Shown here: positions 1 through 20,810 of the stretch, in pieces
Layout of the letters: each line of letters starts with the position of its first letter
How positions within the stretch are numbered: the stretch's first letter is position 1
Assembly (NCBI RefSeq): GCF_033153115.1
Contig: NW_026889758.1
Span: forward strand, 28,086,001-28,150,000
Source: Saccostrea echinata
Taxonomy: Eukaryota
Length of the DNA: 64,000 nt
Direction: 5' to 3'
The notes under the pieces: model-generated
Databases searched by the model: none
Seen by the model: only the letters and a program-made list of their open reading frames with translations
Told to the model about the DNA's origin: nothing
Program-made: the position numbers and the translations under genes

Positions 1-1330
1 CTGTTAACCTCTTGTCATGGACAACTTTATCATACATTTTCTTCATTGCCTAGACAAAAGGATCTTGCTTGAGATCTGTATCATTTTCACAGTATAACAA
101 CAGTTTTATGTTTGTTTCTCTTTTATTAATTACAAATTAATATATCTTTAACATATAGACAAACTTAACATTAAATCAAAGAAATGAAGTGCAAATATTG
201 ATTTAAGATATTCTATGAAATGTAATAATAATTATAAATTATTTATGCTTAATACAAAAGAACACAGGAAAAAATACATGCCTGTTGAAATATTTTTTTC
301 TAGCTTAATATAACAATATAGGGTATATATAGGGTATATATTTTTACATCAACATTCATAACAAAATTAAGATATACCATGGAAACGTTTACAGTGTACA
401 ATATATTTCTATGCTAGCATGGTAGGCCACCATTCTTCACCTTACTCGAGATCATATTGCTCCCATACTAACCCACCCAGTCCACAAGTGTTGGCAACAT
501 ACACACTGTAACTTACAAATCTATACAAACTTTTTGAACACTTTATGAATTAGTACTTATTTATGTCACCATTCTGCAATATACATGTATTGATTTGTAT
601 TTAATAACGAGTGAAATAATTGTACAAACAATCCCTAGTACAAGATAACTTTGCTAGTCTACACTTCATCTTGTGTTTGTAAAAAGTCAAGGAGATTATT
701 TTTTTCATGCTATTAAAAAAATCCGAATTTTTATGTTTCCAACTGATTTTGAAACCTACAACTGAGCTTAAGTCATGTAAAAAAAAATGAGTCTTTACAA
801 GTATATGAGATGTTCTATATTCTCAATATTTCCAGTGGTCACATAACATTTGTACATTTGAATTCAAGAAATCTATTTGCGCACACTCAAGTTACTGTTT
901 AATAATTTATCCAGTTATTTATTGTTAATTTCTGCAATATGCTTAACATACTTGAAATTTCCATGCAGTAGTTAGAAGTTTCAATCCAGTAGTTTTCCGT
1001 TAATGGTATTAAAATTTTTATAGTGAATATGTTGTAGAAGACAGATTATTTTACATTTGTTATGAGTATGTTATTTTGCTTCCTTTAAAGATACATAAAC
1101 TGCTGTTTCTAATATTGATAAACAATGTCCTTTGACACAAGTGTTTTTTTTTTATTTTTATTTTATCGTCAGAATGAGGTATTCATGCATATAAATATGG
1201 TTTTGTACAAATATTATTTCTAAAGTATCTACCACAATTTCATAATTTTATCAATGGGGACATTTCAACTGAATAATTTTTCAAAAAACACCCCATAAAT
1301 TACATTATAAGGTGACTTTTTCCTTTATTT

Positions 1331-4300
1331 TCATACCACTTTCACTTTTTTGTCCATTTTTGCTTTTGCTTCTTTCAACTTTTTGTCTTCCTTTTGTCTC
1401 AATATTTCCATTCTCCTGTTTACTTTCCGAGTGGCAGTCAAGGCAGTTTGTAACTTTTTTTCATTTATTTCCTTCATCTTTTTATCCTGCGTGCTCAATG
1501 TCTGCTTAGAATAAAGGGGGGAAAAGTTATGATTTCAAATAAACACTTCTGGCACTTGTTGATCAAATATCATTTTATTAAAATTTCAATTGTCAGAACA
1601 TCAAATTTTCATAGAGAGAGAGAGAGAGAAATAGAGACAGAGAAACATAAAATTATATTAAAAAAAATCATGTTTATTTTATGATTGTGATGAAAATATT
1701 ATACATGAAATGTGGAGATAACTTACAGTAATTCCAACCTAAATTTTATTTATTGATTTCCCGTGTTTTGATTGGACGAGAACAAATTCAAGAAAAAGTT
1801 TACACATCGATAAATCTCTCAATTAGAACTACTTTCTTGACCTAGCTTTGTAAAAAATTGAAACAACTCGTTACTTCTCGTCTGTTTTAGCTAAACGATT
1901 GCAGAAACTTGAAATCAAATAAAAATGAATAATAAATAAAAACTGACGACTTGCAGGACTGACAGACAGGAATATTATGTTTATGTCACTCTCAGATCAC
2001 AAGTGTGAATTTAAAAATTTCTGATGCATGATGTCATTTTATCGTCGTTCCCAATACTAAGCAAATAAGCTCAGTTCTCGATAGGAAAGAGAAACGTAGA
2101 CTTTTACCTTATTAGCATCAAATTCATATGTCTATATCCTATATTCTGTTCATGCTTCGCACTTTTATTTAGTTTGTGAGTAAAATGTCAAGAGTTTACA
2201 CATCGATAAAATTTTCAAAAAGAACGTTTAATCCTAAAGTAATCAAGCTCAACAATCCATTGAAACAATACAAATCGGGAGCACACACGGACCTCTAAAA
2301 ACATCAGGGGTGGGATCAGGTGCCATGAAGGAGTAAGCTTCCCCTGTTGACCGGTCACACCCGCCTTGTGTTCATTGTCATGATCGGACAAACGGAAAAA
2401 TCCGTAGACAATTCAGTGTTTAAATAATGGCCTAACAATTAGTATGACAAACATCAGTCAGCATTCGACTTAATGATAGATGGCATTTGCTGATCATTGT
2501 ATTGACCAAAGAACTTGTGAAATGGTGACTTTAAACGAGACTGTTGATATCCTTGTTTCATTAACTTGTTTGTCAATAGCTTGCCTCGTTTTAGAAATTG
2601 TTCATACGTGGGGCATGCACTTGTGTAACGAATCAAATGTAAGATACTTTTGAAAAAACATATATCGTTACTTCACCGTTTTTAAACTGACAGAGATTTT
2701 AATGCAAAATATAAAATTACCTTCTTCATTGCATGCTTTAAATTTTCCTGTAATTTTGCAGAATTTTCCTTGGTTGACTTTTCTAAATTCGCCAATGATT
2801 TTATCATTTTTCTCTCTGTTTTCTTTATTTTATTCAGCTTTATTTTCAGTTGTTGGTTATTTTTCTCTGCAACCTTTCTTCCGCCTGCAAATCTCGAAGT
2901 CTAAAATACATATGAAGCTTGAGCATTTAATTACAAATAATATTTTCGTGTATTTAGCTCGTTTCTATGTTGAAGTGGGCTTTCTTTAAATATTTGTATG
3001 TATATACTTTTAGTGCCAGGTCGTCCATTTTCTTGTTCAAACTTTTCACTTCCTTTTCTTCATGTTGAGTCCATTGTGCCAAAGCTTTCAGGGAATCTAT
3101 CAAAACTTGTTTCATTTTTCCTATTCGTTTTCGCACTACTTTTTTTCTTCTCTTCTCCATTTTTGAGATTGCTTTTAAGGTCTGTGGAAAAATATAATGA
3201 ATATTGTCTGACATTTAAAAGTTGGTTTTTTTTTTCTCATTAGAATACTTGTATTTAGAAATGCTACAGTTCTGAGAATTACCTTTGAAAGAAATTTATT
3301 CATTTTTCTGTTCATCCTCTGTAATCTTTGAACACTGACTATATTGAGTTGTCCGATGTATGTATTAATATTTCTAAGTAGATGACTGATCTTCTTTAAA
3401 GCGCTGGGGGCTTCCTCTTTTGCATAAATGCCACCTAGTTGTTTCACATTCTTTAATAAGAAATAATTATCTACATGATTCTCTTGAAACGGGAATGTGT
3501 CAATTGGATACAGTACAAAGTCCAAGTACAATTTAATTCCTATTTAAACTCAAAGCCATATAAGAATGCAAGGAAAATAAAATTCACAGAATATCAGACA
3601 GAAATGGTGATTCAGCAACACTTCAAAAATTCTATTCTTATGTATTAGTATTATATTATACAAACAGTAAGCTGGTCTACAATTCATACAACAGAAATAT
3701 ATGTAGTTTACCTCTGAATCTAAAATACATGCAGTTTGTCAATGTGAAGGAATCTACGTACGTGCCACATGTAGCTGTCCTGAACTGCCTTTCTCAGGTT
3801 TGTCAGTTCTTTGTTGATGTTTTCTATCATGGATTTACTTTTTGATTCATCGGTCTGTGACATGACAAGGGCATGAGCTACGAGTTTAATGTTTTGTTCA
3901 AGATTTCTAATTCGCTTCTGAATTTTCTTCCCGTGATGAGATAATTCTTCCATTGACTTGACAGCTACTGCTTGAAACCTTTGCATGTTTGGATCATTCT
4001 TTGGCTAAGAAAATAAGATCATACTCTATAAATCATTGTATTTTCTTTTCATTTTTCAATTAAACGGAAATACCCCTATCTATGTTATCTTAATACAAAT
4101 AAGGCTACTTACATATCACAACTCATTTATGGTTGTTTTAAATAAATTACAGAATTTTTTAAAGCAGGCACGATCATGAACACCTTATCTTTCAGGGCAT
4201 CCACCTTTTTGGCAATTATTGTTGTTAACCGATGAAACAATGCCAGGTCGCTGTGAAGTTTAGCGCTCCTTTCCTCTAATTTTTTCAGAGTGGTATCAAA

Positions 4301-7300
4301 CTTCTCCCGACTTTTCTGTAAAAATGCTATGCTTTCCTGAACATTTTTATCAGAACTCTTTTGTTTCAATTCATCCATCGACTTTTTTATTTTGTCTATT
4401 TCTTTAGTAGTCTGAAGCAATTCTTCGTGAATATTACGCATTCTTTTGTTAAAATGCAGTAATGATCGTATTTGCATTTCCTTTATCTTTGTAAAGTTTC
4501 CCAGCACACTTTTACTAATGAGATGGATTTTGTCGCGTAAACTCTGGAATGAATGAAAATCAAAATTATATCACACAAATAATTTGAAATTATCTATCAA
4601 CAAACGTTTTTAAAAAATCCTTCTTAGGTTTGTACTTTGAAAAAAAAGGCAACATACAAAATGTACAGGGAATACCTCACCTGAGTGTTTTCTAGATTTT
4701 TCTTTAGATTCGCTATGTTTCCCTTCGTATATTTCGCTTTTTTCTGGCCTATTTAAACGAAATGATGAGATATACAAGTATAATGAACCAATATTTATCT
4801 GTTGTACATGAACATGTATGTACCTTAATTCAGAATAGGGTCTTTTTCATTTCTATTTTTATAAAATTACCTTTATCGCTATGTTTGGTTAATTTTTTTG
4901 TCGAAACTTGTTCTGCACCAGCAACTTTTGGTGTTGGCTTTTGAGAGGCGTTCTTTATTTTGAACAAAAGTTCAGCAATTTCAGTTAATTTATGTTTCTG
5001 TTGTTCCTCGACATTAGGTCCTGTAGTGGTGGAGGTTGTTGTATTTTGTGGAGTAACATCTACGGCAATATTCGGTTGGTCTCGATCAGATAGAAAACAC
5101 ATTTTCTTTTCCTCCTGATATTTAAAATATTGACATTTAATCAATTTTTCTTCCGTGCATAACTTTGCACATACACCATGATTCGGTACATTGCTTCTTC
5201 GGATGATCTTTATGTCTCCTGGTAAACTGACCACTGATGAAGGAGAAACTTGTCTTTTGTGGCGACCTCCAAAACAAAAACAACAATCAGAGGACAGTAC
5301 AAAGATTTTTTTATCATTTGCACTTGTGAGAATTTGATGCAGAATACCATCTGAATCAAGCCTTTTATTGAATATTACAGTTATTAGTATAAAAGATTTT
5401 TGTCGACTTGAGAACAGTTCAGTTTATTCTCTCAAAACTTGTAAATAGTACATGAGGTACGAAAACGTTTGTACATATAATGCAATGGGTCAAGCAAGAA
5501 ATGTGAGTCAAGTCTAGCTAGAGGGAGAAGAGACCAAGCAATTAATTCTAGTAATAAGTGTACACAGCTTTTTTTTTTTAAATTTCAAAATCTTTTGAGC
5601 ACATAATTTCACAAAACTTTATAATATTTAGCTTACAACAAAATTTCTGGCTCAAGAATTTTTTCTTCAAATATCCTAAAGTATTACATTATAAATGTAG
5701 TGGCATTCATCTTTTATCTTTTTACTGTCGCACAAATTACAAAGTCGTTCATTTCTTTGTGTACTATTTCATCTGCCTGTTGTTGATGGTGATTTGTTGT
5801 TCTAAATTTTACAAGACTTTTCTTAAGTTTAAATGATAACAGAGATGAATATTTTTCACACTCATAATTAGTTAACTGTTTTAATAAATTGCCGAACCTT
5901 ACTAATTCATTTTTGAATATATTGATCTTCTAACCTTTGTTTGACTGTTGCAGTTATCCATTTTCCATCATAAAAAGTTTGCTCACACCGTACATTTGAT
6001 AAACCACAGTTGTCAAAAATACATTGAACAAAGAAAACCCAGGCTTTATCAAACTGTTTACGCAGATACAAATAAACAATCCTACACAATTTATTTTCTT
6101 TTCCATACAAGTTTTGCCTAGTATTTTATAACTTAAGAGCATATATTAATGCATCTAGGAAACCGCCCGGTTTCACCATAAACCATACAACTTGGGGTAC
6201 TGCTTATCAAATTCAAGATGTTTAAGAAAGCGTAATTGTACAGTACTCGTTCACTTTCAGAGCCCCATATTTCACAACCACAAAACAGGTAAAAATTCTT
6301 TATCAAAAAAATCCAGATGACATTCAAAGGGTAAGTTAAGTTGTCAAATCTTACATATCACACCATACATTGCCTCTGAATTTTGGAACATGTAGTAAAC
6401 CCTAAACATTCCATCACATATTGGCCTTTCTTGGTCTTTAGAGAGTATATAATGTATATAGATGATGTATTTTTGTCTCATTTTTATACATCTATTATTT
6501 ACAAGTCTACTTTACCATTAAAAACTAAGAAAGTACTTTATGTATTACACATGTACATTAAAAATTCTCCTTTAAGTCTTTATTCATTTTGACTTATCAA
6601 TTACATGATTTACAGTAATAAATTATCTTGTAAATAGTAAGTACATTGTAAATAGCGAAGGGGAATAACTTCTATCAGTAAAGTACTACAAATTTCTCTG
6701 CAATATCAATAGTGCCTTATCAAGCACGAGATGACCCAGTGCCCAGTGGTCAAGAATTTCACAAATCTGGTGAAAACACTTGCTTATTACAACTTTGTAC
6801 TGTAAGCCTTCTCCTAGATGCCCGAGAGCAGAGAAGATTTTCAAAGAATTAATATTCTTTGAGGAGTAGATTATTCCTTTTGCTTAGGAGTCAGAAGGTC
6901 AATGGTCAAGTGTCAAACGGATCATAGAAAGATATTGACCACACTCCATATCTTGGAAACCCTTTGCTTGATAGACACAAACTTGGTAGACTTTTTTAGC
7001 CCTCAGAAGTGTTTTAATAGTTAATACCACTGTAAATTTTGAAGTCACATGATCAATTGCTATTATCAATTCAGTTTCTTGTGACCCGTTTCCTTTAAAG
7101 ACCAAATTTCACACACTGGTACCCTCTAAGAAGTATATTACCTTGAATGTACTGGAGGTCCGTTAGAGATCGAACTTAGTATTATGTTTGCCTCTGACTA
7201 GTAGATGACCAATTGTTTTCACTATCATTACAAACATTCTAAATTTTACAGTTGCTTCCTTTCTAAAATTGCCACACGGATCCGGAGGGTATATATGTTT

Positions 7301-8626
7301 CTCAAATATTTCTTGTTTTGCCTATATATTTCCTAAGCAATTCCCCTGAGAATGATATAAATTATTATATTAATATAAAGCTTTTACGTGTAATATGGGA
7401 TATATGTAATTCAAATTCTTCTGAAAATGTAAGAATAAATTAACATAACTAGAAGTGCATCGCACTGGTGAACTCAAAAAGGGCTTTTCCGACTACACTG
7501 CATTGTCACATGTGCTGGACGTTAACAAAACTACGCAACAATCAAATGACGTCATATTTTTAATACAATGCATGTATATATATATAATTATATACATACA
7601 GAAAAAATGACCTCTTTTGACAATCGTATTATTTTTATGCTTGATGTTTATAGATGTTTAAAATTGTTGTATTGTTAGAGACAGAGGATACAAACTAAAA
7701 AAAAACCCCGGATGCCTGGATTAGAATATATATGTTTTTGGACCTATTTTGATTGCAAATGATGCAAATATTGAATTTCCGAAATTCTAAACTTTCTATG
7801 ATGTTCAAAATTCTACCTTTTTGTCCCTTTACAAATCTATGCAACTTTTTATCACTTGAATTTTGTTTTACCTTTAGATAGCTCAGCATTAACCAAACCT
7901 AAGCAACAAATTTTGTGTTGCTATATACTGTGATGAAAGTTATTTCTAGAATAATATTCCCAATACTATTCTTTTGTTGATGATTAAGTTTGATCATGTT
8001 ACACCTATCATTAGTGAATATTGAGCGTTTTTCCAGCATTTTTCAGCATTTAAAATGTATTCTAAATGAACCTATGATTACCACTTACTTAGAGATATAT
8101 ATTCCAAATAATTTTTTTATAACATAAGTGGCAACAAGATATGATGTTTTTTGTGAGAATGGGTTGTTTGATTTTCTTAGTCTTTAATAAGATTAAAAAA
8201 TGCTGAAAATCTCAAAAATCTCATGGAAACCACGACACATAGCAACCAAATTTTAATTGATACATGTATGTTTCTGGTGTCAAGTTGTAACGATGGGCAA
8301 ATTTTTATCAAAATCGGTGACAATGCGTACCGAAGTAGGCTAGCTCTTGAAACTGAAAGCAGTTTTTCATAATATGTTTTTTTTTTAATGATTATCCTGT
8401 AATTTCATTTCGTTCACACACTTAAAACAAATTTCAGAATAGCACTGTCTTTAACCATCTAACGATCTCCATTTCTTTTCTTTTTTTCAGTTTTCACATC
8501 AGAACACAAAACAACCTAAAAATCTTTTTTAGATCTAGATATAACATATAATCTGTGGCATTTACCTGTATTTTCATTTTGTAGACACAATAAAAACAAT
8601 GAGCACAAGAGCACTGACTTTAACAT
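1331..8626 (-). CDS. Uncharacterised secreted protein A: signal peptide + PAN/Apple-like domain + Thr-rich linker + long Lys-rich coiled coil (about 645 aa, 9 coding exons)
   Basis: Hand-spliced exons with GT-AG boundaries and matching phases: 8626-8566 (MLKSVLLCSLFLLCLQNENT, signal-like), 5350 (or 5266)-4871 (RHKR, then CAKLCTEEKLIKCQYFKYQEEKKMCFLS, PAN-type C-x3-C...C..F.Y...C.LS), 4748-4681, 4543-4184, 4004-3762, ~3480-3283, 3181-3008, 2900-2721, 1504-1331 (stop TGA). The ORF-track pieces at 4830, 4127, 3720, 3175 and 2954 are these exons. The 3762/3480 junction and the exon 2 start are ambiguous. Confidence 0.8.
1613..1628. repeat. (AG)n microsatellite
   Basis: Direct run of AG dinucleotides in the last intron of gene A. 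Confidence 0.9.
2270..2640 (-). mobile_element. 3' fragment of a Penelope-like retroelement (probably Naiad-type): RT C-terminal region plus 3' tail
   Basis: IRYTSACPTYEQFLKRGKLLTNKLMKQGYQQSRLKSPFHKFFGQYND matches the QLIRYARAC...LTNKL..QG....RLKS.F.KFYGRY motif I recall from mollusc PLE reverse transcriptases. It is followed by a GC-richer 3' tail and has no 5' part. Confidence 0.65.
5600..6400 (-). mobile_element. Degenerate 3' part of a non-LTR retrotransposon (RTEX/L2-like ORF2) in intron 1 of gene A
   Basis: Frameshifted pieces: CGCEIWG, STPSCMVYGETGRFP, KENKLCRIVYLYL, DNCGLSN, VKQRLEDQYIQ, FRTTNH, and LCDSKKIKDECHYI (remnant of the C-terminal Cys/His motif). Confidence 0.7.
6710..7320 (-). 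mobile_element. Decayed Helitron/Helentron-like non-autonomous remnant
   Basis: Terminus AACAAGAAATATTTGAGAAACATATATACCCTCCG on -, GGTCAA-type internal motifs, and decayed pieces resembling the 166-bp satellite unit. Boundaries are approximate. Confidence 0.35.
7479..8348. mobile_element. Old TIR element, possibly Kolobok-like
   Basis: Imperfect terminal inverted repeats: AAGGGCTTTTCCGACTACACTGCATTGTCAC versus the reverse complement of the right end, AAGAGCTAGCCTACTTCGGTACGCATTGTCAC. TSD not intact. Confidence 0.4.
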
Positions 8627-8686
8627 CCTAACTTGTTTTAGCGTCTGCCATTTCCTCCATCCCAATGACGTTTTACGTATATTTTG

Positions 8687-8694
8687 TGACGTCA
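8687..8694. promoter_or_regulatory. Palindromic CRE (TGACGTCA) about 60 bp upstream of the gene A ATG
   Basis: Exact TGACGTCA, with a TGACG half-site nearer the ATG. Function is inferred. Confidence 0.5.
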
Positions 8695-9352
8695 TACATT
8701 TTTTTGCAAAATCATGAATTTAGTGTAAGAAGGCCGAAAGGTTCCTTTTTGTGCCAAAAAGAAAATATTATCTGCCACCTTTTTTTTTTTATAATAATGG
8801 CCTTAACTTTTGAAGCTGAAATATAGATCTAGTAGAAATTGAATCTTGTACCTGCATGTATGTGTTGTGCTACACATGTCAAGTGTGAATGCAGACCTCC
8901 ATCTACACATGTAAGAGTAGTTGTGGCTGCAGTTCCACAGATACTTTACCTGTGAACGCAGAGCTCCTCCTCTACCTGTGCATAGAGCTCCACCTATTAT
9001 AGCACGTTGATGCACCTTTACATGCACAGCATCCAGCTGACTTCATCTACACATGTTGATGATATAAATTCATGTAGCCTACCTGTAAATGCAGAGCTCC
9101 ATCTACACATGTTGACGTAGTTCCATGAATACAGAGCTTCACCTACATCCCTCTTCCCAAGGTACCGGCGAATGCCGACCACCACCGAAGGCAGAAGTAA
9201 ATGTACGTACACTACGTGAATACAGGGTCTGTGATAGGCTGCACCTACACATGTTTATGTAGACCTACCCCTGTGAGTACAAAGCTCCGCCCACCACAAA
9301 TGCATGTGAATGCACATGTACCTGTGAATAGAGATCACACTTGTACGATGCA

Positions 9353-10728
9353 CATGGCCGTAGAAACCAGAGGGGGCACGGGGGGGGGGGGGGTGCCGAT
9401 ATAAACAATACTATAGAAAACATAGCTTCTATATGCTTGTGGCCCCTCAATATCACAGGCACTTGGGGTCTGGACCCCCCCCCCCTTTTCCATTTTTTTT
9501 CTTTTTAAATATGGAGTCGATTCACCTTTTTCCTATTTTTGTATTCTAATATGCACTATATGTTATCAATAATGTAACTCTTTTGTCTCTATATGCTGTT
9601 TTTAAATATACCGTTTTCGACTGATACATAAAAAGAGAGAAGGCTTGCAACTCTTTTCTCATCGTCTGCCTCACCTCGCTTAAACTTCGCCTGATTATTT
9701 ATCGAAAGAATAAGAAAACATGGAATATGCATACATCAATAAATTCTTTATACATTCTTCTTTCTTTTCATATTTCCATTTAATTTTTATGTGCCCCCGA
9801 TTTGTAAATATTTCGATTAAATCATCCGCATCTAGGGTAAATTTTGTTGATGTGCACCAGCTGGGACGGAAGTGCAATAACGGTAACTCTAACTTTATAA
9901 ATGTTCTGCATTAAAAAAAAATCCAGGTTTGTAATAACAATATTGTGGAATTTGGTTGTCTAGGTCGTCTATTTAAAGTATAATCTTCATCCATTAAAAT
10001 TTGCTAGTTAAAGTTATCTTGTTATTCACAGAACTTACCGTTACATGTTATATGAAGAGAAAATTCGGGATGTATTCCTTCTCGCATTTAATGTTCCGAA
10101 TTACATTACATGTAATGATGATACCCGAAAATACCGGGCACTTCCGTCCCAGCTGGTGCACATCAACAAAATTTACCCTAGATGCGGATGATTTAATCGA
10201 AATATTTACAAATCGGGGGCACATAAAAATTAAATGGAAATATGAAAAGAAAGAAGAATGTATAACGAATTTATTGATGTATGCATATTCCATGTTTTCT
10301 TATTCTTTCGATAAATAATCAGGCGAAGTTTAAGCGAGGTGAGGCAGACGATGAGAAAAGAGTTGCAAGCCTTCTCTCTTTTTATGTATCAGTCGAAAAC
10401 GGTATATTTAAAAACAGCATATAGAGACAAAAGAGTTACATTATTGATAACATATAGTGCATATTAGAATACAAAAATAGGAAAAGGGTGAATCGACTCC
10501 ATATTTAAAAAGAAAAAAAAAATGGAAAAGGGGGGGGGGGGTCCAGACCCCAAGTGCCTGTGCTCAATATTAACGTCTGGTGACCTTTATTTTTATTTTT
10601 TATTTTTTTTATTTTTTTGCTTGTCAAGGAATTTTTGATAGTTGATAGCCCCCCCCCCCCAACTGAAAATGTATGGTTGTGCCCCATCCCCCTTCCACCC
10701 CCAAGTGAAATTGCTTCCTACGGGCCTG
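9353..10728. mobile_element. Short MITE (about 270 bp net; CATGG...CCTG ends, ~5-bp TSD, hAT5-like) hosting the foldback element
   Basis: Ends CATGGCCGTAGAAAC and TTCCTACGGGCCTG; flanks ATGCA/GTGCA. Colinear with the uninterrupted copy at 12762-13012. Confidence 0.65.
9454..10562. mobile_element. Young foldback-type non-autonomous DNA transposon: ~420-bp inverted arms, 8-bp TSD CTCAATAT (P or hAT superfamily)
   Basis: Arms 9454-9875 and 10138-10562 are near-perfect reverse complements around a 262-bp spacer. CTCAATAT sits at 9446-9453 and 10563-10570. Termini CACAGG...CCTGTG. Confidence 0.92.
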
Positions 10729-11260
10729 GTGCAGGTAGAGCTCCATCCACCTGGGCTTTGATGCACGTCAGAAAACAGAGCTCCATCAACACACGTTGAT
10801 GTACCTCTGAATACAGAGATCATACGGGCGTATCATACGCATTTTGATGTACCTTTGAATGCAAAGTTCCCTAAGCTAGCTCTGATGTAGCTCCATCTAG
10901 GCGGCATATCAAGATAGCTACCGTTGACTCTGATGCACCTGGGAATGTAGAAATTTCACCAATTCGCATAGAATTGTCCGAGTACTGGGTACAACCCCCC
11001 CCCCCCCCAAAAAAAAAATAGGAAACTGAACTGTCCGATAACTCTATCGTTGACAGTTTTTTTAAGTGCTTATTATAGAACTTTATAAATGTTCCAGTAA
11101 ATTTGATAACGGTAATACAAATATGTGTAACTTGAAATTATAGTCTTTACCCAGTACGTACATGAGTATTGATATTTGCGATGTTTCATTTATAATGCAG
11201 TTTATTTCATCTGACAATAAAAAGGACTGTACAATACAGTTTATTACAGTTCAATTGTTA

Positions 11261-13646
11261 TTACAAATCATATATATCATTTCCTATAGTCGCTTCTCCG
11301 AAAAAGAGAACACAGGGTCTGGAATTCTTATCACACAGTTTCAACGGTGAATGGTTTTGGGGGTTGGCTTCTGAATCCCGCGGATCTTCAAAATAGATGG
11401 GGATAAGTCAATTAAATATTTGCTTCAATAAAATAGATAGATAAAGTGTCAAAATATTCCCAAAACTTCATAATTCCATAAAAAATGGAAAAAACATTCA
11501 TTTATTCACAGTTTTTAAAATAATTCATTTTATTATTTTTATTACAATATTAATGTTTTTTAAAATTATTCTGTATTTTTCATCAAGAAATAAAATCATG
11601 AAGTTTGTAAAACAAGTAAATTGTATAACTTGTTCAGAAATATATCGTATAAGTAACTTATTTTTTTTTCTGCAATTGATATAAAATACCTACAAAAAGG
11701 TTGTAGTTTTGCAGTTGTTGGTAAAATTGTAGGGTCTTCAAAAGATCATACAAGATATCATGCATTATATTCTTCTGGTCAAGGCGCAAAGTTTCTATAA
11801 GACGATTAAAATTTCTCCAAAATGCAGTTTTGTTTTTCTCATCTCCACGTGAATTCATTAAGATAGACCCTGATTTTAAAAGCTTCACCGATGACATTGT
11901 CACTTGCTGCTGATGGCGCATGAGTTTCATATGGAGAACCTGCATTTTTCTTTTAGCTAAAGAAATGACCGTAGGTGACAAAATGTGCTGACCGCCCCTT
12001 AGTGTTATTAGGTTTTCTGTTGTAGATAGTAATTTCTGGAAGAAAAAAAGTTTTGATACATATACCGGTTAAGGTTTTTTTTTATTGAAGTTTGGCTTTC
12101 ACTACAATAACGTGTGTGCCTTGATGACGTTACCTGAAGCTCCAGGCTTTTCGCCTCTAATTGAAGAATTTTTATCATTTGAGCTACGATGGCAGAAGAG
12201 TCGGCATTTGACATTGCACTGGAGTCTAAAAGATGTTCAGAAAAAAAAAGTTTGTTAGTTGAAATAATATGTAAAAAAAAAAAATAAATATCTACATTTA
12301 GCCATTGTTGACTACATTCACATATAATCCACCTACTGTTTGCATGTGTTCGTTCAAGGAATAGGCGGGCGACTTTCTCGTTCTGTCTTTGCTCCGGTTT
12401 GACCGATACCCAGCCTGCCAGCTCGGCATATTTACTCTCAGACATCAAACATTGCTGAGTTGTTGTGTTGTACTTTAAATACTGACAGTCTATGGATTTC
12501 GTCCGAATACACGTTTGAATGCATAATTTAAGACTTGGAATTCCGACCTTAGTTAATGATTTCACACGTGCCTTCTGAACGAGGACAGCTGAAAAAGAAA
12601 CGAAATTTTTATTGAAAAATATAGTGTTTAACTTCATTAAAAAAATAAATAAATAAAAGTGTATTTATGCTTTTTAATTCAAAGAAAGGGTACAAAATGA
12701 ACCCTTTATTTTCTATCCCATAATAAATCCATTACAAATGTAAATTTACTCTCTGCATCAGCATGGACGTAGGAACGGGCCGGGGGAAGCACCCCCTTTA
12801 ATTTTGCCGACATATAATTGTAGAAAACACAACTACTTTATGCTTATGTTCCTCAATAGTAACGTCTGTTGATTTTTTTTTTTTTTTTTGGGCGGGTTAA
12901 AGATTTTTTCCTTGGTAGTGCCCCCAAAACTGAAAATGTTTGATTGACCACCACCCCCCACCCTAACCACCACCAAATTAAAAAAAAAAGGAAATTGCTT
13001 CCTACGGGCCTGAACAGTTCTGAAGATATTATGGAGCGCAAGTGTTTGGTCCAAGCGCACGAAATGAGTGGCAAGTTTTGTCTTGATTTATGAACTCATT
13101 AAATTACTGTTTATAAAAAAACAATTAAGGTGAGTCCCGGGCCGGGACTCGGGGAACGTGGGGCCCTTGTCAAATAACTAAACCACATATATACTGTGCT
13201 GCTGAAATGATAATCCCAATATAGGCCTATACATGTATAAGAATGATTGATTTCGTACGTGTACGTGTACAGTGTCATTTGGAATGAAATGTACTGGAAG
13301 ATGTTCCATCATCATATATAGAACAGATCATATAATTATATAATAAACCTATCATATAAGGTTGCACTTATAACTGTATAATCTGTGCCATATATCTTTG
13401 TTACTTTAATTTATGCCCCGCTATTGGCAGAACTAAGTCTGAATTGATTAAAATAGCCTATAGATATGAAGAAGGTATTGACTGATTAATTAATACACAT
13501 AATAAGCCTAGCGTTAAATTGCTAATCGCTCTGACCTTTGTGGACCTAACCATCTCTGATTCTGAGAAAGCAGACACAAAGACCTCACCAGAATGGATTT
13601 CCTCGCAATTGAAAACTATTGATAATAGAAACATCACCCACTTCAT
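11261..13646 (-). CDS. Uncharacterised secreted protein B: signal peptide + PAN/Apple-like domain + helical region (about 290 aa), paralogue of gene A
   Basis: Exons 13646-13589 (MKWVMFLLSIVFNCEEIHS, phase-1 donor GTGAGG), 12588-12337 (CIQTCIRTKSIDCQYLKYNTTTQQCLMS), 12225-12134, 12035-11690, 11385-11261 (TAA, then AATAAA about 15 nt downstream). The frame of the last exon depends on which of two donors near 11690 is used. Confidence 0.75.
12762..13012. mobile_element. MITE, same family as the 9353-10728 host element (empty-site copy)
   Basis: CATGGACGTAGGAAC...TTCCTACGGGCCTG; flanks ATCAG/AACAG. Internal CCTCAATAGTAACGTCTG corresponds to the foldback insertion site. Confidence 0.7.
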
Positions 13647-13765
13647 TTTTCTCTGGAAAAAGTGCGTGTGACGTAATTTTCAGTCTTCTGGGGGTGACGT
13701 CAGGTTTTTTTTAAATATCGGGTTCGATGTGCAATATATTTGAGTCACGTGATAAAATTGCAGCC
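13647..13765. promoter_or_regulatory. Compact bidirectional promoter region between gene B and SNX6
   Basis: 119 bp between divergent ATGs. Contains TGACGTAA (13669-13676), TGACGTCA (13695-13702), and TGAGTCA (13741-13747) overlapping GTCACGTGAT (13744-13753). CpG-richer than the surroundings. Confidence 0.65.
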
Positions 13766-16700
13766 ATGATGGTGGGTGTCCACAACTTTTCGTGGCGTAT
13801 GCTTCCTGAAATTATTATTCTCGTGATTATTTTTGTTTGTCAGTAATATAAATGTCCCTGCTTTATTTTTTAGGACGGAATAGATGACAGCCCCGACCTT
13901 TTGGCGGGCGAAGGGGAAGACAAAGTAAGTAAAGATGCGCAAAATTGAAGTGTCACTCCCCCTCGTCAACCCGTTGTCGCTGAATATTGATGCGTTCACG
14001 TTTATGGACAGCAGTTTTAGCAAGAAATATGTTATGGGCGTATAAAGGGAAACTTAAGGGCATATATATATTTAATGATTACATTTTTATGCAAAACAGT
14101 GCATGAAAAAATACATTTTCTAAAATGTGTCGGTCTCCTGCAGAGCACATACAATAAAAGGGTTGGGGCTATAAAGCATTTTTTTTTGGTGACCAAATAG
14201 ATACTCCTATATAGGTCCCTGACAGCACAAAGATGATTTGTCATACACTTGCGACTTTTGTCTATTTCTAACAAAAAGAAGAAAAAAATCGAAAAACTGT
14301 AATGAAATAGCTTTATCAAGCTATTTTGAATTGCTCCATAAAGCTTAGATAGAATGTTCTATTATTAAAATGATATTGTCCTATGGACCCAGTTTAACAA
14401 TAGAATTTGTTCCGTGTATTGGCAATGTTGCAAAATAAACATGGGCAATAACTCGAACTCTGTGCATTTTCTGTGAACAATTCAGAGAGTTCCGAATGTC
14501 AACATGGCATTTAATTTTAAGCGAGGAAAAAACGTTGAGAAAATGAGTTGAATTTTCGTATTTATATGGATTATTTTTTAGGTTAAAAGGCATATACAAT
14601 CTCAAAAAGGTTTGTTATGATTAATTTGGTAGTTATTTTCAGTGCAACTCCTTTTGTATTCTTCAAAATCATTTCGGAGTGGATCCACTCCGATTTGCTA
14701 CATTGCAAGTATATGGAACGTATTCTAACTGTGGTGAGGGCTTGTCCCGAGACATAGTTAGATTATTCTAACTAAATAAAGCTGTAAAGCTAATTCAATC
14801 TAGATAGATAGCTAAACCAAGAGATTGTGCTGGACCTAATAACAGGTTGGGACTAATCTCTCAAATGGTATAGAATATCTCAAAAAGGTTATGACTTGAA
14901 CGAGTTGTAAGTAAATGTCTGGTATGGGCTACAGACTACAGTTTTTTGCAATCTGATTAAAATCAGATCCTTTGGTCCACTCACATAGATCGCTACACAA
15001 GGATCTGAAGAAACCCCATTCAGGGTCATCTCCTGGTGACCTTTCAATTATCCAATCAAACATTTGCTTGCAAGAATTTAGAAGTATCTCAGAATTCAGT
15101 TATGGAAGTGAAAGTCCCGATGATACACGAACGGAAAATCGTGACCTGGTTTCCGTAGCCTATCAAAAGAATGACCATAGTCTTTTCTGTACAGAAATAT
15201 ATTTAGTACTTGTTTTTGCCTTGTTTTTTAGCTCTTTGTTTTGTTCGAAACGGTAAGATCTTCTCCACAGCTACTTTCACTTCTACATTCATTTTCCTGA
15301 ATGTCGCTTACGTACGATCTCTCTGATTGGACAAAATTTTAATGAATATTTTTATTAGAAAGGTCACCAGGAGATGACCCTGAATAGGGTTTCTTCAGAT
15401 CTTTGTGTAGCGATCTATGTGAGTGGATCAAAGGATCTGATTTTAATCAGATTGCAGTTTTTTGTTTCTTTTTTATATCAGAGAAACAGAAAGACTTGAT
15501 TCTTCAGACAAGGACCAAGGAATTTTTTCAAGGGGGGGTCTACCCTCCTCCCCAGTCAAAAATTTCTAATTTTACTTTATATATATATAGGTTTTCTTTC
15601 CACAGCTAAACACACGATGTTTATTCCCGAGTTTCAATTTGTTCAAAATGCCATTAATTTAGAAATATGCATCGTGAAATTCACTTTTTCCCACCGTTTT
15701 AGCAAATTTCATATAAAATTGCTTATTTTCAAGCAGTTTTTTTTCCATAAAATATTGAGCTCAGACTTAAACAAACTTTATATTTTCACCAAAGATGTAT
15801 CTATCAAAAACCAATTACTGACAGAAAAAAATTGCTTGTTCAAAGCTGCACTCCATTTTTACCTTAGGAAAAAAGTCCAGAAAAAGGTACATTTTTGCCT
15901 TATTTTGATTGGGTGGAAAATCAGGTTCATTTACAGCCAGCTTGTGCATATAAATGAGGCCAATGTATAGAAAATACCTCTCATCTAAACTCTTCTACAA
16001 AATGAAAAAAATTAATATACCTTAATTAGGGGATAAGCCTCCTTTGCGAAACGATACGTATCATATAATTTTGACTCGGTTCGGTTATTTTCGATGCTAT
16101 ACATTTTGATAGAAGGAAGCAAAGTCAACGTTCTTTTTTGTTTTGTTTCACTTATTCAAGTCGCTTATTCTACGTGCAAATTGACTAGAAGAAATTGTTC
16201 GAATGAATTGGCTGTTAAAGATTATTTTACAAACTATCTTCTCAAAAATTTGTGTTTTTAAAATTTAATTATGCTGAGTAACGTGTTTTACCTATGCATA
16301 ACCTGACTGAATAACGATCCTGACTGAAAATTGAACTGAACTGAAAATGGGGGATTTTGCACCATGTATCAAACCTATGAAAAATACCACACTGTCTCCC
16401 CTACAATGACCAATGTAAAAGTGAAAGTTAGTAGAATCTCTACTTTATAGATACAAATATGAGTTATCTAATACGGTTAACCTTTGGTATCTTGAACACC
16501 AATATCTTGAATACCATGGCTATGTCAAAGTGATTTGGAAGTCCTAACCACTATTCTTTATGTATTTTACAAGTTGGATATCTCAAATCCTTGTATATCT
16601 ATAGTTTTTTCTTGGTTCCATTGAGTTTGAGATAATGAGGTTTGACTGTACTTGCAAACATTTTTTTTCTGAACAATTAGTTAAAATAATGCATGTGACA

Positions 16701-19700
16701 TGTCAGTCTCTTATATTGTAGGATAGAGCAGTGAGTGTTGATTTGTCAACAGATACTTCATTGCTTGTAGACATATCAGATGCTCTTAGTGAACGGGATA
16801 AAATAAAATTTACAGTGCACACAAAGGTAAATAGAATTCGTATATTACCGTATATACTCGCCTATAAGTCGGTTTTTTGGGAGTTAAACTTTGGTCCAAA
16901 AACCCCTGTCCGACTTATAGGCAAGTTATGAAAATATTGGTATAATAGCGGGTCAATCCCTTTAATGTTAGCTTAAAAAATACAACCGACTTATAGGCGG
17001 ACCGACTTATAGGCGAGTATATACGGTATGTAAACTTTAATAAACATTTTATAACATCCTGATGTGAAATATTTGTTAGAAAACTGATTTATTAGGAACT
17101 GCTTGGATATATTATTTTCTTACTTATGTATGTGTTTTATTAGACAACACAGTCAAGATTTAAAGAATCTGACTTCTCAGTTGTGAGGCAACATGAGGAA
17201 TTTGTGTGGTTACATGACAGATTTGTTGAAAATGAAGAATATGCCGGTATTATTGTAAGTATCTATAAACCAGGTTAAAGTGCTTCTTGTTGCATGTTTA
17301 ATTGTAACCCATTTTCATCTAATATTGTGTAATTTGTGAACTTTTTAAATTTTTGGCTTCTACTCCAGAATCAAAAGACCAATGTAAATCAAACTTGTCA
17401 CAAAACACTCATGTTAATCGAACTTGTCACAAAACATTCTTGAGTTATTGAGATTCAAATTTATTTATTTATTTATTTATTTTTTTGAAAAAGAAGCAAG
17501 TCCTTTCAGAGAGAGATATTTTAAGGAAAAGTAAAAATAAAGTAAGGTCATCTGAAAGTATATCTCTTCAGAACTACTGAGCCAGAAGTGACAAAATTTG
17601 AAAGGAAGCTACTGTATATTTTGTTCACTCTTTCTCTCTCTGCAAGCATAGGGCACATTGTCCAAGTTAAAACACACACACACTTATATATCAATTTGAC
17701 ACAGCATATTTACATTGTCATCAGCCCAATATTTCACTTGCAGATTCCACCAGCTCCACCGAAACCCGACTTTGAGGCTTCAAGAGAAAAATTACAAAAG
17801 CTTGGAGAAGGGGAGGGAACTATGACTAAAGAAGAATTCACAAAAATGAAACAGGAATTAGAAGCGTAAGAAAATAACAACACCTCATGATTTTCATTAT
17901 TTATTACCGTATAAGCAGAATTTTTTAGCGAGGATTCAATTTTGGTATTACATGTGTTAGCTATTGCTCTCAGATCGCTAAAATTGAATATCGCTAACAG
18001 TTTATTCCATTTCGGTTGTTATATAGTTATCTCTCTTGACATTATTAAATCACTAAAATTACTTCTCACTAAAAATACACATGTATATACCAATTTGGGG
18101 GATAAATTGCTAAATATAGCCTGAACCAATTTATGTTTTCATTCTATAGGGAGTACTTAGCTACATTTAAGAAGACTGTAGCAATGCATGAAGTGTTCTT
18201 ACAAAGAATTGCTGCTCATCCCCAGCTCAAGAATGATGTCAACTTTGAAGTATTTCTCTCATTTGACCAAGATGTGAGTTCATCCTACAGCACATTTGCC
18301 CTATTTTTATAATCCTCAATATTACACTCTCACTAAGATCACTTCTGTGCTCAATTTAAAATTGCTTAATGCATATTATTATGTCTTAATATCTTATATT
18401 TCATATATTTAATTTTGGCCTCATTTAGTTGAGTGTTAGAGGTAAAAACAAGAAAGAAAAGATTGGTGGATTTTTCAAAAGCATTACCAAAACTGCTGAT
18501 GAAGTACTTTTGGCAAACCAAAAGGTAAATATTTAAGAACTTTACTCAGATATATTTCTTTAAATTCAAAGCACAAAAAAAAATCCACAAATGTTACAAA
18601 TTCAAGGGAAATGGAATATTTTGACAGGATGTAGATGAGTTTTTTGAGTCTGAAAAAAGTTTCCTTGTTGAGTACCACAACAAAATAAAGGATGCAACAC
18701 ACAAAGCAGATAGAATGACTAAGTGCCATGGAGGTAATGGTCCATTTATTGTAGGAGTTGTGTAACTGTCCAGGTTTAGAGAGATTGAGGGGGAAAAGTA
18801 CCTTATTAATGAGCTAAATTTGCATTTTGTTAATCCTCAACCCTTCTTCCCTTCCCTCTTTGAATCTTGCATCATTAATTTTAAATTTCTAGGACAGAAT
18901 ATAAACTTCTCTGATTCTGTGACAAATGGAAACATCAACAGAAAAAAGATGGTTAATTTTGAAATAATTTTCTCTGTATTGTTGAGTAAATATATCATTC
19001 CATATGTATTTGGCATATTTGTAGATGTTGCAGATAATTATATCCAAATTTCCTCTGGTTTCGTACAGTTGGCGACAGTCGAAAATACTGAGTTGGACAA
19101 GTAAGTTTAGAAGTTAAAAAATTTATTACACTCAGCATGAGAAAGTCCTCCAGTAATTCTTTGATTTTTACCATTGAGTATTGAAGCTTGTATGTACAAG
19201 ACTAAAAATATATGAAAGACTTTGTCCATGCAATGATTAATAAACTTTTTCCTGTTTCCTGTTCAGAATATTTACAAGAGTTGCAGAGGCTCTGGAGAAA
19301 ACAAGGGTAGGTTTCTAACAGTGGAACAAAAGAACATGATCATTATATGTCTTCTCCTAGTGGAATGCTTATGGGTTTTTTTCCTTGGAATAAAGAATAA
19401 GCATTTCTTTATTCAAACTTTCAGAAATTGGAGGGTAGAGTGTCTACAGATGAGGACCTGAAGTTGAGTGACACTCTACGATATTACATGAGAGACTCTG
19501 CTGCAGCCAAAGATTTGCTCTACAGGAGAGCTAGAGCTCTAGCAGATTATGAAAATGCCAATAAGGCCTTGGAGAAAGCTCGGCTTAAAAATAAAGAGGT
19601 GGCACAGGTAGGATAATTTGTTGAATGAGCATGATTTTCATATCATTTCACTCAAAATATATGTATTTGCTAAAATTCATATTAATTTATAAACATATTG

Positions 19701-20810
19701 ATTACTGATTGATTAGTTTTGAAGGAATGTATATGTATGAAGAAAAAAGAAATAAACTTGAAATCAAATGTTCTTCAATTATTTTCTTAGTCTTTAGATA
19801 AAGACACCATTAATAATCAAATGTTACAAAATGTCATTTAGTCTAAAACATATAGATGTAATTTTGCACCCCCAGTATTCACCAGTTTTCTCATGTAACT
19901 ACAAGTTCATAAAGGACAGTTCTGATTAGAAAATGTAGTAATCAAAGACAATAATCAAACTAAATGTAGCTGTGCTATAAATGCAACACTCATGGTTTAC
20001 CCGAGGAAAAAAGGAGCAATAGTTGACAAACCAAAATCCATCCTTTATTTTTTCAAATTATTTGTCATTCATCAGTTGATTGTGCTCAACAACTGACATG
20101 ATTGATGTTTTGTTCTTTCTTTTCAGGCCGAGAGAACCCAGCAAATTGCTTGTGAGAGATTTGAGAAAATATCAGAAGTAGCTAAAAAGGGTAAAAAAAA
20201 AAAAAAAAACAACAACAGCCAACACTCTCTTAACATGTATTTTAAATACTAGTACAAGGAATCTCTTATTAAGTTTTCACTTTGAGTTTTCAAGGTACAC
20301 ACAATTACAAAGAGGATTAACCGATTCTGTATGTGGGATTTTGTTTGCATTTGCAGAATTAACTGAGTTTAAAACAAGAAGAATAGCATACTTCAAGAAA
20401 AACCTTGTAGATTTAGTAGAACTAGAACTGAAACATGCTAGGGTAAGTACTGTGATCATAATTTTCTTCACTGCTAAAAACTTCATTAATTTCTGAAGGA
20501 CTTTGTTTGTACATGTATTTAAGTCTTAGTATTGTACACTTATTTTAATAGGACTTGTACTTTGATGCAATCCTTAGTGCACTAATAATAATGCAATGCC
20601 AAATGCTGTAATTCTTGAATGTCCAAAACAGTATTTGCTAAATTGTGAATACACTTAAAGAAAAAAATTATATATTCACAAAGTTTACAATTGGAAAATG
20701 TCTGGTAAAAAAAAATCATTATTGTTTTTATGTAAATATGTTAACTTTCATTGCAGGCACAGACCCAGTTGTTAACTAACTGTATAAATGCTTTGAGGGA
20801 TGATGCATGA
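13766..20810 (+). CDS. SNX6: Sorting nexin 6 (SNX5/6/32 family PX-BAR protein), complete
   Basis: Exons: 13766-13771 (MM), 13874-13924 ([17 protein letters not shown]), 16722-16826 ([20 protein letters not shown]), ~17144-17254 ([13 protein letters not shown]), ~17744-17865 ([25 protein letters not shown]), then [92 protein letters not shown], and [17 protein letters not shown] (TGA 20808-20810). Candidate AATAAA at 21711. Confidence 0.96.
14401..14727. mobile_element. TA-flanked MITE in SNX6 intron 2
   Basis: Imperfect ~33-bp TIRs: TAGAATTTGTTCCGTGTATTGGCAATGTTGCAAA and TTTGCTACATTGCAAGTATATGGAACGTATTCTA. Confidence 0.65.
14949..15454. mobile_element. Mutator-like MITE, ~105-bp TIRs, 8-10-bp TSD
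   Basis: CAATCTGATTAAAATCAGATCC... is mirrored at the right end. CAGTTTTTTG directly flanks both ends (14939-14948 and 15455-15464). Confidence 0.85.
16474..16648. mobile_element. Tc1/mariner (pogo/Tigger-like) MITE, TA TSD
   Basis: TA|CGGTTAACCT...GAGGTTTGACTG|TA. Homologous copy at 26375-26553. Confidence 0.65.
16848..17026. mobile_element. Tc1/mariner-type MITE, TA TSD
   Basis: Perfect TIRs CCGTATATACTCGCCTATAAGTCGG / CCGACTTATAGGCGAGTATATACGG, flanked by TA, with internal CCGACTTATAGGC repeats. Confidence 0.9.

What the first reader, a model, noticed from the sequence alone, without database searches (positions are those of the whole stretch)
1331..13646. Tandem pair of uncharacterised secreted PAN/Apple + coiled-coil proteins: candidate new family
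Seen: two same-strand genes share one architecture, a ~20-codon signal-peptide exon, a phase-1 intron, and an exon with the same Cys spacing (CAKLCTEEKLIKCQYFKYQEEKKMCFLS vs CIQTCIRTKSIDCQYLKYNTTTQQCLMS), followed by helical sequence. Outside that motif they have diverged almost beyond recognition. Known: PAN/Apple modules mediate protein or glycan binding and usually sit on proteases, ZP proteins, receptor kinases or adhesins. I do not recognise a family with one N-terminal PAN head on a ~450-aa basic coiled coil. Inference: fast-evolving extracellular rod-and-head proteins for gamete recognition or coat, adhesive/cement, shell matrix or defence, possibly hetero-oligomerising.
Basis: partly seen in the sequence, partly recalled or inferred. 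Interest (0 to 1): 0.75.

Follow-up and report, generated by a model that had tools for sequence, protein, structure and literature searches.

The report
Candidate oyster sperm PAN-rod proteins
Two neighbouring, spliced oyster genes encode strongly basic, likely secreted proteins that start with a PAN binding module; the eastern-oyster counterpart of the larger one is strongly enriched in male gonads, so they are likely sperm proteins, of a family I found undescribed, that would help sperm grip or cross the egg coat.

Summary
Both genes are real. All 12 introns are bridged by spliced contigs, and the models equal RefSeq proteins of Saccostrea echinata. Both carry a PAN_1 domain above Pfam's cut-off.

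Only gene A (606 aa) has the ~450-aa basic coiled coil, plus a conserved furin-type site. Gene B (262 aa) has a predicted three-helix bundle not shown to be homologous to it.

A has orthologs in Saccostrea, Ostrea (1569 aa) and Crassostrea (2100 aa), and remote relatives in scallop and pearl oyster. Scallop isoforms end in either a C-type lectin or basic repeats. RefSeq names (titin, WDR87, myosin) are unsupported.

The C. virginica ortholog of A is male-biased in gonad (logFC +6.7 and +7.0) and shows no sex effect in gill (PMC12040131 supplements). This favours the gamete option over shell, cement or defence.

Best reading (0.45): cationic acrosomal proteins that bind the egg envelope alongside bindin. 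Location in sperm, ligand, oligomer state and B's expression are untested. The PAN head is conserved rather than hypervariable. I found no description in print.

The parts
8566..8626 (-). Gene A exon 1: start codon and predicted signal peptide (20 codons), phase-1 donor
   Evidence: hydrophobicity
4871..5266 (-). Gene A exon 2 (phase 1-1): RHKR furin-type site (5264-5253), 4-Cys PAN_1 domain (about 5201-5046), Thr/Pro-rich linker with N-glycosylation sequons
4681..4748 (-). Gene A exon 3 (phase 1 to 0), start of the helical region
4184..4543 (-). Gene A exon 4, coiled coil with the conserved NFT/NFS sequon and QIRSLLHFNKR motif
3762..4004 (-). Gene A exon 5, coiled coil; holds the NDPNMQ motif that aligns with the scallop relative
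3283..3450 (-). Gene A exon 6
3008..3181 (-). Gene A exon 7
2721..2900 (-). Gene A exon 8
1331..1501 (-). Gene A exon 9. The frame runs through a donor-like GT at 1336-1335 into the stop; Crassostrea-type genomic fragments leave their exon at the matching residue and go on into a long basic tail
600..1330 (-). 3' UTR of gene A (contigs run on past 600); no remnant of the long-tail exons found in 1-1340
13589..13646 (-). Gene B exon 1: start codon and predicted signal peptide (19 codons), phase-1 donor
12337..12588 (-). Gene B exon 2 (phase 1-1): 4-Cys PAN_1 domain (about 12562-12428)
12134..12225 (-). Gene B exon 3 (phase 1 to 0), predicted helix 1
11694..12035 (-). Gene B exon 4, predicted helices 2 and 3 of a three-helix bundle
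11341..11385 (-). Gene B exon 5, coding end and stop; the UTR runs to a poly(A) end at about 11184

Best explanation
The two genes encode PAN-headed, strongly basic proteins that are likely made in the male germ line, likely packed into the sperm acrosome, and would bind the egg's vitelline envelope when released. Steps: (1) SHOWN: both are spliced genes with an N-terminal hydrophobic leader, no internal membrane span and a 4-Cys PAN domain; pI is about 10. (2) SHOWN for the C. virginica ortholog of A only: strong male-gonad bias. (3) INFERRED: they enter the secretory route; A is trimmed by a furin-type convertase at R-x-K-R, kept in all four oyster species, so that the PAN domain becomes the free tip. 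(4) INFERRED: the spermatid's main secretory product is the acrosomal granule, where A's long cationic coiled coil self-associates into a rod or meshwork that displays PAN heads. (5) INFERRED: after the acrosome reaction the PAN heads bind a conserved glycan or protein of the egg coat, and the Lys/Arg-rich rod and variable tail bind the anionic coat. A would act as a conserved adhesive scaffold beside the hypervariable lectin bindin. B, a compact PAN plus cationic helical bundle, would be the small diffusible partner, possibly loosening the coat as abalone lysin does.
For: Gene models. PAN. Leader present, no transmembrane segment and no KDEL in 10 of 11 full-length proteins; the Pinctada model has a weak, probably truncated leader. 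R-x-K-R before the PAN in 4 of 4 oyster A proteins, and twice in O. edulis, once before each PAN; absent in B and in the scallop and pearl-oyster proteins. A sequon follows the PAN and another lies in exon 4 in all four. LOC111129585 (P0024; 40% identical to A; HMM E 5.9e-138) has Sex logFC +6.72 in the gonad table (524 male-up of 35,736 transcripts) and +6.95 after removal of one outlier male (683 of 37,676). In the latter table testis kinase TSSK3 is +7.54 and vitellogenin -8.75; plus means male. In the gill table it is listed without any effect. Scallop isoforms put a C-type lectin domain at the end of a related rod (PF00059 E 6e-07; rod homology score 40.5 vs null 17.8+-2.9, 0 of 60 shuffles). 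Bindin is stored in the oyster acrosome and binds the vitelline envelope (PMC5712786); cationic helical lysin acts on the abalone envelope (PMC6826153).
Against: The expression evidence is one study of whole gonad, in another genus, for A only. It cannot tell germ cells from somatic cells, or acrosome from sperm surface or seminal fluid. The transcript is also among those retained in gill. Of 6 papers whose supplements I searched, 5 did not list the gene. No proteomic or localisation data were found. The PAN head is conserved and the partial pN/pS is about 0.37, unlike positively selected recognition proteins. No ligand is known. The model of A is poor (pLDDT 45). B has no expression data by tissue.
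Confidence: 0.45

Rival explanations
1. Male reproductive but outside the acrosome: the proteins are secreted by testicular somatic cells or germ cells into the lumen as a cationic matrix or sperm coat that packs and protects sperm (sperm balls in Ostrea), or acts as a spawning cue.
For: The same male-gonad bias. Very long Lys/Arg-rich tails (779 and 1468 aa, 33-34% K+R) suit a bulk matrix. Sperm balls in Ostrea and sperm-borne spawning cues in oysters are recalled, from no call.
Against: The family is kept in free-spawning Crassostrea and Saccostrea (recalled life history), and Saccostrea uses a short form. The logFC falls among spermatid and sperm-structure genes, which does not exclude somatic cells.
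Confidence: 0.22
2. A purely structural acrosomal matrix: the rods condense and order the granule contents, or support the acrosomal process, and never bind the egg.
For: Conserved PAN and purifying selection; a long proline-poor helical rod (3 Pro in 454 aa); a conserved convertase-type site.
Against: A terminal PAN module and, in scallop, a terminal C-type lectin domain are typical ligand-binding heads.
Confidence: 0.15
3. A non-reproductive extracellular protein (larval cement, shell or periostracum matrix, mucus, defence), as the first reader also proposed; the male bias would be secondary.
For: The transcript is retained in the gill data set. PAN occurs in biomineral proteomes (PMC13425148). 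A coiled coil plus C-type lectin resembles collectin-like pattern receptors (recalled). The scallop and pearl-oyster relatives have no expression data here.
Against: About 100-fold male bias in gonad if the values are log2, as edgeR reports by default; only 1.5-1.8% of transcripts were male-up.
Confidence: 0.12
4. An intracellular sperm protein: a nuclear basic protein or a tektin-like flagellar filament, with a leader that does not function.
For: pI above 10 and up to 31% K+R. The top fold matches of B's bundle include axonemal doublet chains (Z 13.8, rmsd 2.7, 141 aligned).
Against: Conserved leader, disulfide-type PAN domain, furin-type site and sequons. The Z scores are in the range that unrelated helical bundles reach, and designed three-helix bundles score almost the same. 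No tektin Pfam match.
Confidence: 0.06

Closest known systems
PAN/Apple domain (Pfam PF00024; plasminogen/HGF N-domain type with four cysteines)
   Same: One PAN_1 domain per protein (two in O. edulis A), above the curated cut-off; C-x3-C...C...C spacing; 1-1 phase exon.
   Different: No protease, kringle, ZP or kinase domain. The PAN is of a distinct bivalve subtype (a shared motif matched 14 of 16 proteins tested) and sits on a basic helical rod or bundle.
Oyster bindin (acrosomal F-type lectin of Crassostrea; PMC5712786, PMC3348941)
   Same: Male-gonad-expressed secretory protein with a binding module and many splice forms (at least 8 RefSeq isoforms for O. edulis A and 10 for C. virginica).
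   Different: No F-type lectin domain; the head is conserved rather than diversified; a long coiled coil is present. Acrosomal location is shown for bindin and untested here.
Abalone lysin (PMC6826153)
   Same: B is a small, cationic, predicted helical-bundle protein with a leader.
   Different: No sequence match to any PDB chain at E <= 1; B carries a PAN domain; no envelope-dissolving activity tested.
Mytilus acrosomal proteins M3/M6/M7 (named in PMC6826153; their C-type lectin nature is recalled)
   Same: Bivalve sperm secretory proteins; scallop isoforms of this family end in a C-type lectin domain.
   Different: A and B have no C-type lectin domain, and M3/M6/M7 are not known to me to have a PAN or a long rod. 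No sequence comparison was possible.
Collectin / scavenger-receptor-A-like rod-and-head proteins (recalled) and snail CAMPs (PMC10475054)
   Same: A constant N-terminal part with oligomerising helices and interchangeable C-terminal modules.
   Different: No collagen region. The CAMP paper does not mention PAN, Apple or coiled coils (0 occurrences) and describes Ser/Thr-rich N-termini in mucus.

Membership tests
PAN_1 domain (PF00024) | HMM score above the gathering cut-off | tested here: met
   A 29.7 bits, B 25.0 bits, cut-off 21.4; 14 of 15 proteins scanned pass, P0022 scores 20.9
PAN_1 domain (PF00024) | Four core cysteines, helix then beta strands | tested here: met
   Exactly 4 Cys in each mature protein; helix plus strands in both models at modest pLDDT; weak Foldseek rows to plasminogen, HGF NK1 and SML-2 (E 0.39-0.54)
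Apple domain with six cysteines (factor XI / prekallikrein type) | Third disulfide joining the domain's ends (recalled) | tested here: not met
   Only four cysteines outside the leader in A and B
Oyster bindin | One to five F-type lectin domains | tested here: not met
   No such Pfam match at E <= 0.001 in A, B or their orthologs
Oyster bindin | Male-gonad expression | tested here: met
   For the C. virginica ortholog of A only; B not tested
Oyster bindin | Storage in the acrosome and binding to the vitelline envelope | not testable with these tools
   Needs proteomics, immunolocalisation and binding assays
Oyster bindin | Positive selection on the binding module | tested here: inconclusive
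   The PAN is among the best-conserved regions; partial allele list 9 N: 6 S over 1457: 361 sites, 67 further differences not shown by the tool; no interspecies dN/dS possible
Abalone lysin / sp18 | Sequence similarity to lysin | tested here: not met
   A profile of B found no PDB chain at E <= 1; no Pfam match besides PAN_1
Abalone lysin / sp18 | Amphipathic cationic helical-bundle fold | tested here: inconclusive
   B predicted as a three-helix bundle, pI 10; fold matches are generic bundles
Mytilus M3/M6/M7 | C-type lectin domain (recalled) | tested here: not met
   Absent from A and B; present in scallop isoforms P0036 and P0050
Titin / WDR87 / TSGA10 / myosin / paramyosin (the RefSeq labels) | Ig-Fn3 repeats, WD40 repeats or myosin tail; no signal peptide | tested here: not met
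   None of these Pfam families matched; an N-terminal leader is present
Collectins | Collagen Gly-X-Y region before the neck and lectin domain (recalled) | tested here: not met
   No collagen Pfam match in any of the 15 proteins scanned
CAMPs of snail mucus | Near-identical Ser/Thr-rich N-terminus with lectin, VWA or fibrinogen C-terminus | tested here: inconclusive

The most novel reading that the evidence does not exclude
These are the founding members of an undescribed fertilisation protein family of pteriomorph bivalves. A is a convertase-activated, PAN-tipped cationic rod with tails swapped by splicing (C-type lectin or polybasic repeats) that glues sperm to the egg coat. B is the oyster's functional counterpart of lysin. 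This would make PAN a gamete-binding module in animals and give oysters a second sperm-egg system beside bindin.
Probability: 0.22. Interest if true: 0.8.

Novelty: new variant of a known kind. Interest (0 to 1): 0.55.

Why it matters
For oysters, the papers I read name only bindin as an acrosomal egg-binding protein; what else fills the acrosome and how sperm cross the vitelline envelope is open. This locus gives two concrete, cloneable candidates with a conserved head, traceable in three farmed oyster genera and, more remotely, in scallop and pearl oyster. They are hidden in databases under wrong names (titin, WDR87, myosin). If confirmed, they bear on hybrid compatibility, sperm-quality markers and sterility breeding, and add PAN to the modules used in gamete binding. 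If not acrosomal, they are still an uncharacterised class of cationic rod proteins of the male gonad.

Tried and rejected
No whole genome is held, so paralogs and possible downstream exons of A beyond position 1 could not be searched.

Two scans of metagenome contigs found no relative (119 and 592 pattern matches, none confirmed).

A complex prediction of three copies of A 165-378 gave no verdict (score 0.00, alignment not used); this says nothing for or against oligomerisation. A/B pairing was not submitted.

The AlphaFold model of A was too poor to search (pLDDT 45). Fold searches with the B model gave no Foldseek match at E <= 0.001 and only generic helical bundles; lysin was not among the 50 rows shown in any list, which does not exclude it. 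ESM Atlas: one weak PAN_1 cluster for A (0.75), no usable feature hit for B. PDB sequence searches: nothing significant for A or B.

No run listed was on record as RNA; contig depths were not used to rank genes.

My first idea, that Saccostrea A was shortened by a frameshift, was dropped: the stop follows a donor-like site where Crassostrea-type fragments end the exon. Contig ends at 1336 in X3 and X4 are not evidence of a long isoform, because depth about doubles into the UTR, as when two alleles merge.

Homology of B's helices to exons 3-4 of A: not established. Oyster A rod against the Pinctada rod alone: not significant (25-62 of 300 shuffles reach the score).

My recollection that snail CAMPs carry PAN domains was wrong.

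Male-biased genes with LOC numbers next to LOC111129585 (574, 575, 581, 582, 584) were not counted as a cluster: SNX6, the neighbour in this window, is LOC111130157, so ID order need not be gene order.

Supplements of PMC13070813, PMC11750097, PMC11556341, PMC13219418 (one scanned PDF unread) and PMC13144384 held none of the identifiers. Earlier scan findings: none relevant.
Full report
OBSERVATION. Both genes lie on the minus strand. Contigs of four public runs (at most 3 samples, 2 studies; RNA status guessed by the tool) bridge all 8 introns of gene A in every run. They bridge all 4 introns of gene B, two in 4 runs and two in 3, with canonical ends. The spliced A frame (9 exons, 8626-1331, 606 aa) is identical to P0001, which is XP_061173443.1 of Saccostrea echinata, labelled 'titin homolog'. 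B (5 exons, 13646-11341, 262 aa) corresponds to P0004, XP_061174472.1. A poly(A) end at 11184 closes B's transcript, so these are two genes. Their first four exons share phases: leader (phase 1), PAN (1-1), short exon (1-0), then an exon of about 350 nt (0-0). The cysteine motif occurs twice in the window; of 200 shuffles, 13 gave one match and none gave two. Both PANs pass Pfam's cut-off.

ANATOMY. A: leader, RHKR, PAN (aa 43-94), a Thr/Pro linker, and about 450 helical residues with 3 prolines, net charge +65 and a modest heptad signal (13% of windows vs 1.8% shuffled; orthologs 25-30%); pI 10.2. B: leader, PAN, and three helices of 41-53 residues predicted as an antiparallel bundle (pLDDT mostly 65-81 there, 59 overall); no heptad signal and no furin-type site. 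SignalP was not available. A hydrophobicity scan shows an N-terminal core and no internal membrane span or KDEL. A and B align only over the PAN (28% over 67 aa; profile probability 95% over 51 columns). A weak profile signal between B and exons 3-4 of A (1 of 100 shuffles, probability 2%) is inconclusive. A common origin by tandem duplication is inferred from the PAN subtype, exon phases and position.

FAMILY. An HMM of A against 1.84 billion representatives gave 27 hits at E <= 0.001; those that carry a species name are all bivalve, the rest are unnamed fragments. Orthologs of A: S. cucullata (615 aa, 82%), Ostrea edulis (1569 aa, 57%, two RxKR-PAN units) and Crassostrea virginica LOC111129585 (2100 aa, 40%). 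The Ostrea and Crassostrea tails are homologous (32% over 440 aa) and 33-34% K+R, so the long form is probably ancestral. Saccostrea stops just after a donor-like GT where Crassostrea-type genomic fragments end the exon. The read-through form is real (contig X2 record 6 runs from the coding region into the UTR); a long isoform is neither shown nor excluded. Orthologs of B: S. cucullata (79%), O. edulis (50%) and an unnamed record (48%). In S. cucullata and O. edulis, A and B have the same longest-contig length (305,907 and 94,306,699), and in S. cucullata near-consecutive accessions; this suggests, but does not show, conserved linkage. Argopecten and Pinctada proteins have the same PAN subtype and a rod of about 450 aa. 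Their rods are clearly related to each other (Z 22) and remotely to oyster A: profile score 40.5 vs 17.8+-2.9, 0 of 60 heptad-block shuffles, probability 49%; pairwise 0, 7 and 1 of 300 shuffles for scallop, not significant for Pinctada. Scallop isoforms are identical to residue 571 and then end in a C-type lectin domain or in Lys/Arg/Gly-rich repeats. The PAN tree supports A and B as separate clades (99/98 and 100/100) but leaves their relation open (15 rows, 52 columns; P0022 and P0046 were missed by the extraction pattern).

EXPRESSION. In PMC12040131 (abstract, passages, term searches of the supplements, and one part of S3 read), LOC111129585 has Sex logFC +6.72 in the gonad model and +6.95 without one outlier male. 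Plus is male. 524 of 35,736 and 683 of 37,676 transcripts were male-up; TSSK3 is +7.54 and vitellogenin -8.75. In gill it is listed with no effect. This is one study, whole tissue, the ortholog of A only. Five other papers' supplements (term searches only) did not list the identifiers.

SELECTION. The PAN is 60/65 (A) and 59/66 (B) identical between the Saccostrea species; the other regions run 58/85 to 54/58 in A and 109/140 for B's helices. Of the allele differences shown for A, 9 are nonsynonymous and 6 synonymous, pN/pS about 0.37; 67 further differences were not displayed. This fits a constrained head, not a species-specific key.

MECHANISM. The leader, disulfide-type PAN, sequons and a convertase-type site kept in four oyster species point to the secretory route. 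Male-gonad expression points to sperm, whose main secretory organelle is the acrosome (established knowledge). I therefore commit to acrosomal cargo that binds the egg envelope: PAN as the binding tip, the cationic rod and variable tail as a multivalent adhesive scaffold, and B as a compact cationic partner (0.45). Every step after expression is inferred. Rivals: seminal or sperm-coat matrix (0.22), purely structural acrosomal matrix (0.15), non-reproductive matrix or defence (0.12), intracellular protein (0.06).

COMPARISON. It would work like bindin or lysin but is a member of neither: no F-type lectin domain and no lysin similarity. I read passages of PMC5712786, PMC6826153 and PMC3348941 for these. 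The RefSeq names are unsupported.

NOVELTY. I ran ten full-text searches. Those aimed at the family or at five of its locus identifiers (26, 37, 52, 57, 91) showed no description; most rows were seen as listings only. Passages of PMC10475054, PMC13425148, PMC3269628 and PMC8353863 do not describe it. Subscription journals, including oyster and scallop sperm proteomes that I recall but could not read, and bioRxiv supplements were out of reach and may list these proteins. C. gigas gene identifiers were not available to search.

VERDICT. A real, apparently undescribed bivalve family of secreted PAN-rod proteins with one solid functional clue, male-gonad bias. New variant of a known kind; interest 0.55.

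Noticed in passing
window 9454-10562: Foldback or MITE-like insertion between the two genes: inverted arms of 401 nt, 98% complementary, 262 nt apart, with further outer arm matches.
   Followed up: no
window 9202 to 13874, + strand: One contig of run X1 joins 9202 to 13874 with GT..AG ends: a plus-strand spliced transcript whose intron would contain all of gene B in antisense. Seen in 1 of 4 runs.
   Followed up: no
window 8631: A 13-nt insertion in the 5' UTR of gene A, just before the start codon, in runs X3 and X4.
   Followed up: no
window 8884-9122 and 10768-10806: Degenerate 39-nt direct repeats, 4 copies, flanking the foldback element.
   Followed up: no
window about 1960-2700: High-copy repeat in the last intron of gene A, with very many contigs laid and a short frame that looks like a retroelement remnant (recalled resemblance).
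   Followed up: no
window about 16700-20500 (+), 24300-44200 (-), 45700-46460 (+), 48700-64000 (+): Neighbours: a sorting nexin 5/6-like gene (Vps5 match), an unidentified multi-exon coiled-coil gene, a C1q-domain gene with leader and short coiled coil (C1q E 1.9e-16), and a dynein heavy chain (DHC_N1).
   Followed up: partly
P0036, P0037, P0050, P0051 (Argopecten irradians RefSeq isoforms): One scallop gene swaps a C-type lectin domain for Lys/Arg/Pro/Gly and Gly/Glu repeats after residue 571; it is annotated as myosin- or paramyosin-like.
   Followed up: partly
P0039, P0047, P0048, P0049 (unnamed genomic fragments): Further PAN exons of the same subtype, suggesting more paralogs or more host species than the named ones.
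   Followed up: partly
PMC12040131 S3 file: Five uncharacterised C. virginica genes with LOC numbers close to the ortholog of A (111129574, 575, 581, 582, 584) are also male-biased (+4.1 to +5.8); one could be the ortholog of B, or this may reflect how IDs were assigned.
   Followed up: partly
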